DNA of 64,000 nt from Escherichia coli (GCF_046105845.1 NZ_CP151004.1); one strand, 5' to 3'. Shown: positions 34,224-43,501, counted from the stretch's first letter. Numbers and translations: made by a program. Notes: generated from the letters alone by a model not told the origin.

Positions 34224-35912
34224 ATGAGTGGTGAAAAAAAGGCGAAAGGCTGGCGGTTCTATGGTCTTGTAGGTTTGGGCGCAATAGTACTGCTTTCCGC
34301 TGGCGTCTGGGCGTTGCAATATGCTGGCAGTGGGCCAGAAAAAACGTTGTCGCCGCTGGTGGTGCACAACAATCTGCAAATCGATCTCAATGAGCCGGAC
34401 CTCTTTCTCGACAGCGACTCTCTGAGCCAGCTTCCCAAAGATCTCCTTACCATTCCGTTTCTCCACGATGTTCTGAGTGAAGATTTCGTTTTCTATTATC
34501 AGAATCATGCCGATCGTCTGGGCATTGAAGGCAGCATTCGCCGCATTGTCTATGAACACGATCTCACGCTGAAAGATAAGCTCTTTTCGTCACTCTTAGA
34601 TCAGCCCGCGCAGGCGGCGCTATGGCACGATAAACAAGGCCATCTTTCACATTACATGGTGCTGATCCAGCGCAGTGGTTTAAGCAAACTGCTGGAGCCA
34701 TTGTTGTTTGCCGCTACCAGCGACAGCCAGTTAAGCAAAACGGAAATCAGTAGTATTAAGCTAAATAGTGAAACCATCCCGGTTTATCAGTTGCGCTATA
34801 ACGGCAATAACGCCCTGATGTTCGCGACTTATCAGGACAAGATGCTGGTGTTTTCCAGTACGGATATGCTGTTTAAAGATGACCAGCAGGATACCGAAGC
34901 CACGGCGATCGCAAGTGATTTGTTGAGCGGTAAAAAACGCTGGCAAGCCAGCTTTGGCCTGGAAGAGCGTACTGCCGAAAAAACGCCAGTACGCCAGCGC
35001 ATCGTGGTCAGCGCCAGGTTGCTGGGGTTTGGCTACCAGCGATTAATGCCTTCTTTTGCTGGCGTACGCTTCGAAATGAGCAACGACGGCTGGCATAGCT
35101 TTGTGGCGTTAAATGATGAATCCGCCAGCGTAGATGCCAGTTTCGATTTTACGCCGGTATGGAACAGTATGCCTGCCGGGGCCAGCTTCTGTGTGGCGGT
35201 GCCGTATTCGCATGGTATTGCCGAAGAGATGCTTTCGCACATCAGCCAGGAAAACGACAAGCTGAACGGGGCGTTAGATGGTGCAGCCGGGCTGTGCTGG
35301 TATGAAGACTCAAAATTACAAACCCCGCTATTTGTTGGTCAATTTGATGGCTCAGCCGAACAGGCACAACTGCCTGGGAAACTGTTTACGCAAAATATTG
35401 GTGCGCACGAAAGCAAAGCGCCAGAAGGTGTTTTGCCGGTAAGCCAGACTCAGCAGGGCGAAGCGCAAATCTGGCGTCGCGAAGTGAGTTCCCGATACGG
35501 CCAGTATCCGAAAGCGCAGGCGGCGCAACCAGATCAATTAATGTCGGATTATTTTTTCCGCGTGTCGCTGGCGATGCAAAACAAAACGCTGCTTTTCTCC
35601 CTCGATGACACGCTGGTTAATAACGCGCTGCAAACACTGAATAAAACCCGCCCGGCAATGGTGGATGTGATACCCACTGATGGCATCGTTCCGCTCTATA
35701 TCAATCCACAAGGCGTGGCGAAACTGCTGCGTAACGAAACGCTGACCAGTCTGCCGAAGAATCTCGAACCGGTTTTTTATAACGCCGCACAAACTTTATT
35801 AATGCCGAAGCTGGACGCTTTATCTCAACAACCTCGTTATGTCATGAAGCTGGCCCAGATGGAACCCGATGCCGCCTGGCAGTGGCTACCCATAACCTGG
35901 CAGCCGCTATGA
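34224..35912 (+). CDS. yfaA: DUF2138-family membrane-anchored protein YfaA
   Basis: ATG at 34224 gives 562 aa with an N-terminal TM segment ([23 protein letters not shown]); first gene of the yfaATSQP cluster. Confidence 0.8.
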
Positions 35913-36532
35913 GGCACGGGCTGCTGGCGCTGATTTGCTGGCTGTGTTGTGTTGTTGCCCATAGCGAAATGCTGAATGTCGAACAATCCGGGCTGTTTCG
36001 CGCCTGGTTTGTACGCATTGCACAGGAACAGCTCCGCCAGGGGCCAAGTCCGCGCTGGTATCAGCAGGATTGTGCGGGCCTGGTGCGATTTTCGGCGAAC
36101 GAGGCGCTGAAAATTCACGACAGCAAATGGCTAAAAAGTAACGGCATAGCAAGTCAGTATTTGCCGCCTGAAATGACGCTAACACCTGAACAGCGTCAAC
36201 TGGCGCAAAACTGGAATCAGGGGAACGGAAAAACCGGCCCCTATGTGACCGCGATTAATTTGATTCAATATAACAGCCAGTTCATTGGCCAGGACATAAA
36301 CCAGGCGCTGCCTGGCGATATGATTTTTTTCGATCAGGGCGATGCCCAGCACTTAATGGTCTGGATGGGGCGTTACGTCATCTACCACACCGGAAGCGCC
36401 ACGAAAACTGACAACGGAATGCGCGCAGTCAGTCTGCAACAACTTATGACATGGAAGGACACCCGATGGATACCCAACGATTCCAATCCCAATTTCATTG
36501 GCATTTATCGTTTAAATTTTCTGGCGCGATAG
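35909..36532 (+). CDS. yfaT: DUF1175-family protein YfaT
   Basis: ATG at 35909 overlaps the yfaA stop (ATGA); 207 aa with an N-terminal hydrophobic segment. Confidence 0.75.
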
Positions 36533-42720: not shown

Positions 42721-42724
42721 TGCT

Positions 42725-43501
42725 ATGCGAAAGATTTTTCTTCCGTTGTTACTGGTGGCGCTTTCGCCTGTCGCTCACAGTGAAGGTGTGCAGGAAGTCG
42801 AGATTGATGCACCGCTCTCTGGCTGGCATCCGGCAGAGGGCGAAGATGCCAGTTTTTCACAATCGATCAATTACCCGGCGTCGTCCGTCAACATGGCAGA
42901 TGATCAAAATATCTCAGCGCAGATCCGCGGCAAAATAAAGAATTATGCTGCGGCGGGTAAAGTTCAGCAGGGCCGGCTGGTGGTCAACGGTGCCAGTATG
43001 CCGCAGAGAATTGAATCCGATGGTTCATTTGCACGCCCTTATATTTTCACTGAAGGCAGCAACAGCGTGCAGGTCATCAGCCCAGATGGGCAAAGCCGAC
43101 AAAAAATGCAGTTTTACTCGACGCCGGGCGCTGGAGTGATCCGCGCGCGTTTACGGCTGGTTCTCTCCTGGGATACGGACAATACCGACCTCGACCTTCA
43201 CGTTGTTACACCTGATGGCGAACACGCCTGGTACGGTAACACCGTGCTGAAAAACAGTGGTGCACTGGATATGGATGTCACGACGGGGTACGGCCCCGAG
43301 ATTTTCGCTATGCCAGCGCCGATTCACGGACGTTATCAGGTGTATATCAACTACTATGGCGGACGCAGCGAAACGGAATTGACGACCGCCCAACTGACGC
43401 TGATCACCGATGAAGGATCGGTCAATGAGAAACAGGAAACATTTATTGTACCGATGCGTAATGCTGGCGAGCTGACGCTGGTGAAAAGTTTTGACTGGTG
43501 A
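42725..43501 (+). CDS. yfaP: DUF2135-family secreted protein YfaP
   Basis: 258 aa with signal peptide MRKIFLPLLLVALSPVAHS; last gene of the cluster. Confidence 0.8.
   Translation: MRKIFLPLLLVALSPVAHSEGVQEVEIDAPLSGWHPAEGEDASFSQSINYPASSVNMADDQNISAQIRGKIKNYAAAGKVQQGRLVVNGASMPQRIESDGSFARPYIFTEGSNSVQVISPDGQSRQKMQFYSTPGAGVIRARLRLVLSWDTDNTDLDLHVVTPDGEHAWYGNTVLKNSGALDMDVTTGYGPEIFAMPAPIHGRYQVYINYYGGRSETELTTAQLTLITDEGSVNEKQETFIVPMRNAGELTLVKSFDW

What the first reader, a model, noticed from the sequence alone, without database searches (positions are those of the whole stretch)
34224..43501. Intact five-gene yfaA-yfaT-yfaS-yfaQ-yfaP alpha-2-macroglobulin-like operon with tightly coupled junctions
yfaS is a single 1534-codon frame here; my recollection is that the K-12 copy is annotated as disrupted. 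The translation contains no CxEQ thioester motif, so it belongs to the thioester-less A2M class. All four partner proteins are DUF-only, each with a signal peptide or membrane anchor, and the junctions are coupled: ATGA overlap at yfaA/yfaT, a 67-nt overlap at yfaT/yfaS, and TAA directly followed by GTG at yfaS/yfaQ. The locus ends in a shared bidirectional terminator. The function of this presumably envelope-located system is essentially unknown, so an intact copy is a useful handle for study.
Basis: partly seen in the sequence, partly recalled or inferred. Interest (0 to 1): 0.5.

Follow-up and report, generated by a model that had tools for sequence, protein, structure and literature searches.

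The report
E. coli thioester-less macroglobulin (Mag-type) operon
This is the normal, intact E. coli copy of a known five-gene envelope system built around a thioester-less alpha-2-macroglobulin, the counterpart of the studied Pseudomonas aeruginosa Mag complex, so it is real but not new.

Summary
Five co-directional, tightly coupled genes (yfaA-yfaT-yfaS-yfaQ-yfaP) lie between gyrA and atoB. yfaS is one 1534-codon frame with no CxEQ. The K-12 defect is a single TGG>TGA change at codon 1368.

- Intact is the norm. The locus is in 5398 of 5426 complete E. coli genomes, and the K-12 nonsense allele is in only 364, which in the sample listed are K-12-type laboratory strains.
- The system is not essentially unknown. 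It is the E. coli magBCDEF equivalent of the P. aeruginosa Mag complex, for which three things are published: non-covalent protease trapping, anchoring by MagB, and protection against peptidoglycan-targeting T6SS effectors.
- The partners are not featureless. YfaT is 74% identical to the crystallised peptidoglycan binder MagC. YfaQ models as a PBP/beta-lactamase-like domain plus a SpoIID-like domain, which a 2025 preprint already reports.

Two points may be new. YfaQ has a family-invariant HExxH motif. Also, close YfaS relatives in syntenic Pseudomonas mag operons still carry CVEQ, so "type II = thioester-less" is not a clean class.

Verdict: already known, low interest.

The parts
34076..34223 (+). 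gyrA-yfaA intergenic leader. It holds two terminator-like hairpins after gyrA, then a third hairpin. The yfaA Shine-Dalgarno (AAGGAA) sits in a small CACA/UGUG stem-loop just before the ATG.
   Evidence: Sequence. RNA fold -54.5 kcal/mol, z -5.0. No sigma-70-like site inside the leader; the only one nearby overlaps the gyrA stop at 34050-34078. The promoter is not identified.
34224..35912 (+). yfaA (562 aa), the MagB counterpart. It has one N-terminal transmembrane anchor (aa ~12-32) and a periplasmic DUF2138 body.
35909..36532 (+). yfaT (207 aa), the MagC counterpart: a secreted NlpC/P60-like peptidoglycan-binding protein. Its start overlaps the yfaA stop (ATGA).
   Evidence: PDB 7BK8 MagC E=9e-103, 74% identity over 186 aa. 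Pfam DUF1175 E=4e-58 and weak NLPC_P60. Sequence shows signal-like N-terminus ending AHS|E.
36466..41070 (+). yfaS (1534 aa), the MagD counterpart: an intact thioester-less alpha-2-macroglobulin.
   Evidence: Single frame. Pfam MG2 344-440, A2M_BRD 661-806, A2M 871-953, bMG10 ~1409-1517. Family profile hits ECAM/YfhM 4rtd, 4ziq and 5a42 at E~3e-12 and Sa-A2M at 1e-9. 54-56% identical to Pseudomonas homologs.
36466..36579 (+). YfaS signal sequence (aa 1-38; predicted cleavage after ANA). It overlaps the 3' end of yfaT by 67 nt.
   Evidence: Hydrophobic window at aa 18-36. GAAGGA Shine-Dalgarno before ATG 36466. Homolog N-termini aligned. The cleavage site is inferred by eye, not by a predictor.
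38884..39075 (+). Bait-region segment of YfaS (aa 807-870), lying between the BRD and A2M domains. It is basic-rich ([16 protein letters not shown]) and unusually conserved.
   Evidence: Position from the Pfam domain boundaries. Column identity 0.84-0.88 against a protein mean of 0.71. Many invariant residues between 848 and 867.
39661..39684 (+). Remnant of the thioester site (aa 1066-1073, PWGGVINT) in place of PYGCLEQT.
   Evidence: hmmsearch alignment to ECAM. Per-sequence motifs in homologs.
40567..40569 (+). Codon W1368: TGG here, TGA in K-12. This is the K-12 pseudogene lesion. It truncates YfaS before the bMG10 match, removing the C-terminal 167 aa.
   Evidence: Codon-by-codon comparison with the K-12 derivative L001. 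MG1655 b4500 is annotated as a pseudogene. The K-12 55-mer is found in 364 of 5426 genomes.
41071..42720 (+). yfaQ (549 aa), the MagE counterpart: a secreted three-part protein. Its GTG start directly follows the yfaS TAA.
41134..41805 (+). YfaQ N-terminal PBP-transpeptidase/beta-lactamase-like domain (aa ~22-245). Motifs: S60-x-x-K63, S108-C109-G110, K195-T196-W197, and conserved Cys82/92/93/109.
42004..42405 (+). YfaQ SpoIID-like (lytic transglycosylase fold) domain (aa ~312-445), with invariant E334 aligned to the Glu of the SpoIID 'VVASE' motif.
42628..42642 (+). YfaQ HEYLH (aa 520-524), a family-invariant HExxH motif in a predicted helix. A conserved E536 follows at the start of the next long helix.
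   Evidence: H520, E521 and H524 in 58/58 sequences and E536 in 55/58, in a 27-48%-identity alignment. Helices 512-526 and 536-548. Only a non-significant match to selecase MJ1213, E=1.5.
42725..43501 (+). yfaP (258 aa), the MagF/MagA counterpart: a secreted DUF2135 (YfaP_C) protein.
   Evidence: Pfam DUF2135 E=3e-17. Signal-like N-terminus ending AHS|E. MagA and MagF are paralogs that bind MagD (PMC3735191; PMC5764988).
43541..43562 (.). Bidirectional intrinsic-terminator hairpin shared by yfaP (+) and atoB (-).
   Evidence: Scan hit on the - strand. Both strands fold, at -24.9 and -22.2 kcal/mol, z -3.4 and -3.7, with an A-run upstream and a T-run downstream.

Best explanation
This locus is the intact E. 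coli ortholog of the Mag-type ('type II') bacterial alpha-2-macroglobulin system. It corresponds to magB-magC-magD-magE-magF of P. aeruginosa, without the magA paralog.

Proposed mechanism, inferred from the homologs:
- All five products are exported.
- YfaA (MagB) is a single-pass inner-membrane protein. It tethers and stabilises the large macroglobulin YfaS (MagD) on the periplasmic face.
- YfaP (MagF) binds the macroglobulin as an accessory subunit.
- YfaT (MagC) is an NlpC/P60-like protein that binds peptidoglycan.
- YfaQ (MagE) carries PBP-like and SpoIID-like peptidoglycan-recognition or processing modules and is needed for normal maturation of the macroglobulin.
- When a foreign hydrolase reaches the periplasm and cuts the bait segment, YfaS closes on it and holds it non-covalently. 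Its thioester site has decayed to G-V-I-N, so no covalent bond can form.

The net effect would be protection of the cell wall and periplasm from incoming proteases and peptidoglycan-targeting effectors.

Shown here: gene identities, intactness, domain content, loss of the thioester motif, operon conservation and purifying selection.
Inferred from P. aeruginosa work: complex assembly, trapping and the protective role.
For: Orthology and architecture:
- Pfam assignments for all five proteins.
- YfaT is 74% identical to crystallised MagC.
- YfaS is 54-56% identical to Pseudomonas A2Ms.
- The same gene order and tight junctions occur in a distant metagenomic locus and in three Pseudomonas-group mag operons, including a stop followed directly by a start at the A2M/DUF2300 junction in L006; the gap is 2-3 nt in L007 and L008.

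A2M membership and thioester loss.

Export signals: and Table 2 of PMC3735191.

The locus is maintained:
- It is present in 5398 of 5426 complete genomes.
- dN/dS against K-12 is 0.04-0.18 for all five genes.

Published function of the homologous system:
- MagD traps a protease without a thioester, and MagB anchors and stabilises it (PMC5764988).
- Delta-magE changes MagD amount and processing (PMC5764988).
- The mag operon protects against peptidoglycan-targeting T6SS effectors (PMC12663445).
- MagC binds peptidoglycan (Zouhir 2021, as cited in PMC10318531).
- Delta-yfaQ cells are wider, and their phenotype clusters with mepS, mepK and nlpI mutants.
Against: - No experiment on the E. coli proteins as a complex was found in the searched library.
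- MagC and MagE did not form stable binary complexes with MagD in vitro, and MagE was reported in the cytoplasmic fraction despite its signal peptide.
- Trapping by MagD was shown only with an engineered TEV site, and cleavage was incomplete.
- The bait segment is highly conserved, unlike the variable broad-spectrum baits of eukaryotic A2Ms. This fits a specific or endogenous protease better than a general trap.
- E. coli lacks magA.
- YfaQ-msfGFP was undetectable under laboratory conditions.
- K-12 tolerates a truncated YfaS, and at least one O157:H7 genome has a decayed locus.
Confidence: 0.6

Rival explanations
1. The operon is mainly a peptidoglycan maintenance or remodelling module. YfaQ (PBP-like plus SpoIID-like, with HExxH) and YfaT (NlpC/P60-like) act on or sense the cell wall. 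The macroglobulin is a scaffold or regulator, or is itself a substrate cut at its conserved bait by YfaQ, rather than a trap for foreign proteases.
For: - YfaQ fold and motif conservation.
- Delta-yfaQ gives wider cells, with a phenotype linked to mepK, mepS and nlpI. This was seen in a K-12 background, where yfaS is truncated, so YfaQ acts without full-length YfaS.
- MagC binds peptidoglycan.
- Delta-magE alters MagD processing.
- The bait is conserved rather than variable.
- The mag operon protects specifically against peptidoglycan-targeting effectors.
- It parallels the pairing of type I A2M with PBP1c.
Against: - The KTG box is K-T-(F/W/Y) and the SxN box is S-C-G. A bulky residue in place of the KTG glycine suggests binding rather than catalysis (my inference from PBP/beta-lactamase knowledge).
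- DUF1175 is classed as catalytically inactive.
- No enzymatic activity has been reported for MagE or YfaQ.
- The HExxH region has no significant match to any metallopeptidase (E=1.5).
- MagD does trap a protease in vitro.
Confidence: 0.25
2. The system is a host-directed colonisation factor. The macroglobulin neutralises host proteases, such as neutrophil elastase or gut proteases, that reach the periplasm. This is the original proposal for bacterial A2Ms.
For: - A2M fold with a bait region.
- Bacterial A2Ms occur mainly in colonisers and pathogens, and strains lacking MagD are reported as less virulent in a chronic-infection model (both as summarised in PMC5764988).
- The type I ECAM binds neutrophil elastase (PMC3735191).
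Against: - No natural target protease of a type II A2M is reported in the papers read.
- Close homologs are common in environmental Pseudomonas and in metagenomes.
- The conserved basic bait argues against a broad host-protease range.
- The best-defined phenotype is interbacterial, namely resistance to T6SS effectors.
Confidence: 0.1
3. In E. coli the locus is a decaying relic that no longer has a function.
For: - K-12 has a nonsense codon.
- An O157:H7 genome has a frameshifted yfaS, an internal stop in yfaQ and no yfaP.
- Truncated YfaS forms recur in databases.
- The thioester site is the most degenerate in the family.
- The TED is the least conserved region.
- The YfaQ fusion was undetectable.
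Against: - The locus is present in 5398 of 5426 complete genomes, with at least 80% coverage in 5178.
- The main intact YfaS cluster has 40,950 member sequences.
- dN/dS is 0.04-0.18 for all five genes.
- The K-12 allele appears confined to K-12-type strains.
- Delta-yfaQ has a phenotype.
Confidence: 0.05

Closest known systems
P. aeruginosa Mag complex (magABCDEF, PA4492-PA4487), with the type II bacterial alpha-2-macroglobulin MagD
   Same: - Same protein families in the same order: DUF2138/MagB, DUF1175/MagC, A2M/MagD, DUF2300/MagE, DUF2135/MagF.
- Tightly coupled junctions.
- Signal peptides on all proteins except the membrane-anchored MagB/YfaA.
- No thioester cysteine.
- YfaT is 74% identical to MagC, and YfaS is about 55% identical to Pseudomonas A2Ms.
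   Different: - E. coli has five genes and lacks the leading magA paralog.
- The thioester site is more decayed: GVIN in E. coli, against GVEQ or CVEQ in Pseudomonas-group homologs.
- yfaT and yfaS overlap by 67 nt, against a 4-nt overlap or a short gap in the Pseudomonas-group loci.
- The genomic neighbourhood differs: gyrA/ato here, against Mem_trans/gatCAB/mreB there.
- Regulation in E. coli was not examined here; nothing turned up in the one literature search made.
Type I bacterial alpha-2-macroglobulins: E. coli ECAM/YfhM and Salmonella Sa-A2M
   Same: Same superfamily and domain plan (MG domains, bait region domain, A2M domain, TED, MG10). The YfaS-family profile hits them at E 3e-12 to 1e-9.
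   Different: - Type I proteins have CLEQ, are lipoproteins and are paired with pbpC.
- YfaS has GVIN at that site, no pbpC neighbour and four dedicated partner genes.
- YfaS alone does not detect them by phmmer.
SpoIID lytic transglycosylases and zinc-site class B PBPs (SpoVD and PBP3 of C. difficile), compared with YfaQ only
   Same: - Predicted folds match.
- YfaQ E334 aligns to the Glu of the SpoIID 'VVASE' motif; I take that Glu to be the catalytic one from memory.
- SxxK aligns on SxxK.
- The Cys at the X position of SxN, and two upstream Cys, align with the PBP3 positions that PMC9334274 describes as zinc ligands.
   Different: - The two modules are fused in one periplasmic protein of a Gram-negative bacterium.
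- The KTG glycine is replaced by an aromatic residue.
- There is no His ligand; a Cys-Cys pair takes its place.
- There is an extra C-terminal HExxH module.
- No activity has been shown.

Membership tests
Alpha-2-macroglobulin / complement C3 superfamily (YfaS) | Array of MG domains, a bait-region domain, the A2M domain and a C-terminal MG10 | tested here: met
   Pfam MG2, A2M_BRD, A2M and bMG10. Family profile hits ECAM, Sa-A2M, C5, CD109 and TEP1.
Type II (MagD-type) bacterial A2M (YfaS) | No CxEQ thioester motif | tested here: met
   No C.EQ in 1534 aa. The site aligned to ECAM CLEQ reads GVIN. Caveat: 31 of 73 close homologs in this family do carry CVEQ, so this feature does not define the family cleanly.
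Type II (MagD-type) bacterial A2M (YfaS) | Encoded in a mag-type operon with DUF2138, DUF1175, DUF2300 and DUF2135 genes | tested here: met
   The same arrangement is seen in L005, L006, L007 and L008.
Type II (MagD-type) bacterial A2M (YfaS) | Secreted by a signal peptide, with no lipid anchor of its own | tested here: inconclusive
   There is an N-terminal hydrophobic segment and an ANA|DD site. However, the string I22-A-A-C25 resembles a lipobox, and C25 is shared with E. albertii. No signal-peptide predictor was available.
Type II (MagD-type) bacterial A2M (YfaS) | Non-covalent trapping of a protease after bait cleavage, and complex formation with MagB- and MagF-type partners | not testable with these tools
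   Shown only for P. aeruginosa MagD (PMC5764988).
Type I bacterial A2M (ECAM/YfhM type) | CxEQ thioester, lipoprotein anchor and an adjacent pbpC | tested here: not met
   No CxEQ. The neighbours are yfaT and yfaQ, not pbpC.
MagC / DUF1175 NlpC/P60-like peptidoglycan-binding proteins (YfaT) | Full-length similarity to MagC (PDB 7BK8) and a DUF1175 profile match | tested here: met
   E=9e-103, 74% identity. Pfam E=4e-58. Peptidoglycan binding itself is not testable here.
SpoIID-type lytic transglycosylase (YfaQ aa ~312-445) | SpoIID fold with the conserved Glu in the EEY..VV..E motif | tested here: met
Penicillin-binding / serine beta-lactamase fold (YfaQ aa ~22-245) | The fold plus the three active-site boxes SxxK, SxN (or SxV/YxN) and KTG | tested here: inconclusive
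   The fold is met. SxxK is met (S60 and K63 in 57/58). The second box is S-C-G and the third is K-T-(F/W/Y), not KTG. It is a member of the fold; catalytic competence is doubtful.
Zincin metallopeptidases (YfaQ aa ~452-549) | HExxH on a helix, a third zinc ligand, and the zincin fold | tested here: inconclusive
   HExxH is invariant and E536 is present in 55/58. The helices are predicted at the right places. The only sequence match (selecase 4qhf) has E=1.5, and no metallopeptidase appears in the listed structure hits.

The most novel reading that the evidence does not exclude
YfaQ/MagE may be more than a chaperone. It could be a three-module sensor-enzyme that reads the state of the peptidoglycan and then cuts the macroglobulin at its unusually conserved, basic bait segment. 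In this reading, arming or processing of the type II A2M (165 to 100 kDa in Pseudomonas) would be an endogenous, cell-wall-damage-triggered step, analogous to the BlaR1/MecR1 sensor-protease logic.

Its three modules are:
- a PBP-like domain with a Cys-rich site of the SpoVD/PBP3 zinc type;
- a SpoIID-like glycan-binding or glycan-cleaving domain;
- a family-invariant HExxH...E module that was not mentioned in the passages of the papers I read.

A second, smaller point concerns the thioester. It is present in some orthologs (CVEQ), half-lost in others (GVEQ) and fully lost in the rest (GV[IV]N); for CVEQ and GVEQ this was confirmed inside syntenic mag operons. The accepted type I / type II split by thioester would therefore need revising.
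Probability: 0.15. Interest if true: 0.55.

Novelty: already known. Interest (0 to 1): 0.2.

Why it matters
As submitted, the finding matters little. The operon is a near-universal, annotated E. coli locus, its K-12 defect is on record, and its Pseudomonas counterpart has been studied biochemically and genetically.

Its practical value is modest. Most E. coli envelope work is done in K-12, which carries yfaS(W1368*). Any test of the macroglobulin's role in E. coli therefore needs a repaired allele or a natural isolate such as this one.

The side observations could sharpen current work on how type II macroglobulins protect against peptidoglycan-targeting T6SS effectors, because they give concrete residues to mutate:
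- the invariant HExxH in YfaQ/MagE;
- the intact SxxK and the conserved SpoIID-motif Glu in YfaQ/MagE;
- the conserved bait in YfaS;
- the CVEQ-bearing orthologs in mag operons.

Tried and rejected
- **NCBIfam:** only the uninformative PRK11410 'hypothetical protein' model matched, for YfaA. Nothing matched the other four proteins.
- **PADLOC defence models:** no hits for any of the five proteins.
- **Rfam on 33800-43800:** no RNA family.
- **phmmer of YfaS alone against PDB:** only weak C5 and CD109 hits, and ECAM was missed. A family profile was needed.
- **The two Pfam 'DUF2300 repeats' in YfaQ:** they show no pairwise similarity by BLASTP (E=0.94), so I did not treat them as a true duplication.
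- **Metallopeptidase assignment for the YfaQ C-terminus:** not established (E=1.5; no such hits listed).
- **Papers not held in the library:** Budd et al. 2004 and Zouhir et al. 2021 could not be read. Their content is cited only through papers that describe them.
- **CsrA link:** a search for 'yfaA' with 'CsrA' found nothing, and the GGA-in-hairpin at the yfaA Shine-Dalgarno was not pursued.
- **Longer ORF starts:** GTG 34182 for yfaA, GTG 35882 for yfaT and ATG 36451 for yfaS were considered and set aside. None has a Shine-Dalgarno, and all disagree with the K-12 and RefSeq models.
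Full report
**What is in the sequence**

Between gyrA (31448-34075, +) and atoB (43575-44759, -) lie five co-directional ORFs:
- yfaA, 34224-35912
- yfaT, 35909-36532
- yfaS, 36466-41070
- yfaQ, 41071-42720
- yfaP, 42725-43501

There is an ATGA overlap at yfaA/yfaT. TAA is followed directly by GTG at yfaS/yfaQ. A 4-nt spacer separates yfaQ and yfaP.

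The 67-nt yfaT/yfaS overlap is real only for the ATG at 36466. That start has a GAAGGA Shine-Dalgarno 6 nt upstream. It is also the start used for K-12 b4500, which is 4605 nt long. RefSeq PGAP models use GTG 36556 instead, giving 1504 aa. That start has no Shine-Dalgarno and removes the hydrophobic N-terminus, so I regard 36466 as correct.

The yfaP-atoB spacer holds a hairpin at 43541-43562, with an A-run before it and a T-run after it. It folds well on both strands, which is consistent with a shared bidirectional terminator.

**Intactness and the K-12 lesion**

yfaS is a single 1534-codon frame. MG1655 annotates yfaS as a pseudogene. A codon-by-codon comparison with a K-12 derivative shows no indels. 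The one disabling change is W1368 TGG>TGA, at window 40567-40569. It truncates the protein before the bMG10 match, removing the C-terminal 167 aa.

I searched with a 55-mer built so that every 28-base seed spans the K-12 allele. It matched 364 of 5426 complete genomes, and nearly all of the 30 listed were K-12-type or laboratory strains.

The locus as a whole is in 5398 of 5426 genomes, with at least 80% coverage in 5178. The main intact YfaS protein cluster has 40,950 member sequences. dN/dS between this window and K-12 is 0.04-0.18 for all five genes. Intact is therefore the normal, selected state, and K-12 is the exception.

**No thioester**

YfaS has no C.EQ and only two cysteines, at positions 25 and 1189. 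A profile built from 15 family members finds ECAM/YfhM at E about 3e-12. It aligns ECAM 'YPYGCLEQTASGLFP' with YfaS '[15 protein letters not shown]'. The thioester Cys, Glu and Gln are therefore replaced by Gly, Ile and Asn. Pfam finds MG2, the bait-region domain, the A2M domain and bMG10.

**What the system is**

The partners are DUF2138 (YfaA), DUF1175 (YfaT), tandem DUF2300 plus SpoIID (YfaQ) and DUF2135 (YfaP). This is the gene set of the P. aeruginosa magABCDEF operon, whose central protein MagD is the type II, thioester-less bacterial A2M (PMC3735191; PMC5764988).

I confirmed the same order and tight coupling in a distant metagenomic contig and in three Pseudomonas-group genomes. Those three carry a sixth gene, a leading YfaP_C paralog (magA), which E. 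coli lacks. MagA and MagF are known paralogs.

Published work on the Pseudomonas system shows the following:
- MagD is periplasmic and associated with the inner membrane. MagB anchors and stabilises it.
- MagA, MagB and MagF each bind MagD 1:1.
- MagD with an engineered TEV site traps the protease without a thioester.
- Delta-magE alters MagD amount and processing.
- The mag operon protects against the peptidoglycan-targeting T6SS effectors VgrG3 and Tae1 (PMC12663445).

**The partners are not featureless**

*YfaT.* It matches the crystal structure of MagC (7BK8) at E=9e-103, with 74% identity over 186 residues. MagC is an NlpC/P60-like protein reported to bind peptidoglycan, and its family is classed as catalytically inactive (Zouhir 2021, as cited in PMC10318531).

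*YfaQ, model and folds.* I collected 58 diverse family members at 27-48% identity. The AlphaFold2 model was confident, with pLDDT 94.1 and pTM 0.86.
- Foldseek agrees on the beta-lactamase/PBP fold.

*YfaQ, sequence motifs.* Profile searches against PDB sequences give the same picture.
- SpoIID 4rwr is hit at E=6e-4, with YfaQ E334 aligned to the Glu of the SpoIID 'VVASE' motif.
- C. difficile PBP3 is hit at E=0.06. YfaQ G-S60-L-W-K63 lies on the PBP SxxK box, and S108-C109-G lies on the PBP S-C-N box.
- Three conserved YfaQ cysteines align with the PBP3 positions that PMC9334274 describes as an active-site zinc motif.
- S60, K63, S108, C109, K195, T196 and E334 are invariant or nearly so.
- The third box is K-T-(F/W/Y) rather than KTG. 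From general PBP knowledge this argues for binding rather than catalysis.

*YfaQ, prior work.* This two-domain description is not new. A 2025 preprint reports that YfaQ has a transpeptidase-like N-terminal domain and a SpoIID-like C-terminal domain. It also reports that delta-yfaQ cells are wider, that the mutant's phenotype clusters with mepK, mepS and nlpI mutants, and that yfaQ is present in about 98% of 131,610 E. coli genomes. I take that screen to have been done in K-12. There yfaS is truncated, so YfaQ would act without a full-length macroglobulin.

*YfaA.* It gave a moderate model (pLDDT 76.7) and only weak matches to small periplasmic sensor or lipid-binding domains. It has a single N-terminal transmembrane segment, in line with MagB.

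**Points that may be new**

1. YfaQ has an HExxH motif (HEYLH, aa 520-524) that is invariant in 58 of 58 sequences. E536 is conserved in 55 of 58. Both lie on predicted helices that follow a small sheet. The only sequence match is a non-significant one to the minimal metallopeptidase selecase (E=1.5). This is therefore a lead and not an assignment. Combined with the delta-magE processing defect, it suggests that MagE/YfaQ might itself cut the macroglobulin.

2. The bait segment (aa 807-870) is among the most conserved parts of YfaS, at 0.84-0.88 column identity against a mean of 0.71. The thioester domain is the least conserved. This is the reverse of what a broad-spectrum bait would show.

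3. The thioester site varies among close orthologs. Of 73 full-length homologs at 54% identity or more, 31 read CVEQ, 20 GVEQ, 1 SVEQ and 19 GV(I/V)N. CVEQ-bearing proteins (P0072, P0095) and a GVEQ-bearing protein (P0110) all sit in syntenic six-gene mag operons. The usual statement that the operon-encoded class lacks the thioester is therefore not general. The E. coli protein is the most decayed form.

**Mechanism**

My best explanation, at confidence 0.6, is an exported, inner-membrane-tethered macroglobulin complex that guards the periplasm and cell wall. YfaA would anchor it and YfaP would be an accessory subunit. YfaT would bind peptidoglycan. YfaQ would recognise or process peptidoglycan and help the macroglobulin mature. 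YfaS would trap an intruding hydrolase non-covalently after bait cleavage.

The gene identities, domains, thioester loss, conservation and selection are shown here. Assembly, trapping and protection are inferred from the Pseudomonas system.

The main rival, at 0.25, is that the operon is chiefly a peptidoglycan maintenance module and the macroglobulin is a scaffold or substrate. A host-protease defence role (0.1) and a non-functional relic (0.05) are less likely. The relic reading is contradicted by prevalence and by dN/dS.

**Verdict**

The locus is a known, near-universal E. coli operon with a characterised homologous system. I rate it already known, interest 0.2.

Noticed in passing
window 39661-39684 (YfaS aa 1066-1073); homologs P0063-P0120; loci L006 8001-12545, L007 6001-10551, L008 6001-10548: The thioester site varies among close YfaS/MagD orthologs. 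Of 73 full-length homologs, 31 read CVEQ, 20 GVEQ, 1 SVEQ and 19 GV(I/V)N. Both CVEQ and GVEQ forms sit in syntenic six-gene mag operons. 'Type II = thioester-less' is therefore not a clean class.
   Followed up: partly
window 42628-42642 (YfaQ aa 520-524) and aa 536: YfaQ has an HExxH motif (HEYLH) that is invariant across 58 diverse YfaQ/MagE family members, plus a conserved downstream Glu. Both lie on predicted helices. No significant metallopeptidase match was found, and the motif is not mentioned in the passages of the papers I read.
   Followed up: partly
window 41314-41397 (YfaQ Cys82, Cys92, Cys93, Cys109): Three or four conserved cysteines of the PBP-like domain align with the zinc-binding motif of C. 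difficile PBP3/SpoVD, including the Cys at the X position of SxN. This suggests a Cys-rich metal or redox site.
   Followed up: partly
window 38884-39075 (YfaS aa 807-870): The presumed bait segment is basic-rich and among the most conserved parts of the protein, while the thioester domain (aa ~1200-1380) is the least conserved.
   Followed up: partly
window 36466-36579 vs 36556: RefSeq PGAP starts yfaS at GTG 36556 (1504 aa; the cluster has 40,950 members). That start has no Shine-Dalgarno and cuts off the signal sequence. ATG 36466, with a GAAGGA Shine-Dalgarno, looks correct, so this is probably a widespread start-codon mis-annotation.
   Followed up: partly
window 36529-36540 (YfaS aa 22-25, I-A-A-C): There is a lipobox-like string inside the YfaS signal sequence. 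Cys25 is shared with E. albertii, and Cys appears at that alignment column in 7 of 15 family members. Whether YfaS is lipidated is open.
   Followed up: no
window 34076-34223: The gyrA-yfaA spacer is strongly structured (z -5). It has two terminator-like hairpins and no sigma-70-like promoter inside it. The yfaA Shine-Dalgarno (AAGGAA) sits in the loop of a CACA/UGUG hairpin, which resembles a CsrA/RsmA site, and the Pseudomonas mag operon is RsmA-regulated. No literature link was found.
   Followed up: partly
locus L009 (E. coli O157:H7 strain AC-3), 4184-13596: In this genome yfaS is frameshifted and yfaQ has an internal stop. The stretch from yfaP to the 5' part of apbE is missing; in the window that stretch holds ato, rcsCBD and ompC. 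I did not check whether this is typical of O157:H7.
   Followed up: no
window 34100-43600 and 41071-42720: The best match among 5426 complete E. coli genomes is only 98.9% identical over this 9.5 kb, and K-12 is 97.1% identical. yfaQ has a much lower dS against K-12 (0.03) than its neighbours (about 0.13), which suggests a recombination mosaic.
   Followed up: no
homologs P0038-P0055 of YfaS: Truncated E. coli YfaS forms of 959-1034 aa recur on many contigs (for example P0040 on 54 and P0048 on 42). This points to at least one further disrupted allele circulating besides the K-12 one.
   Followed up: no
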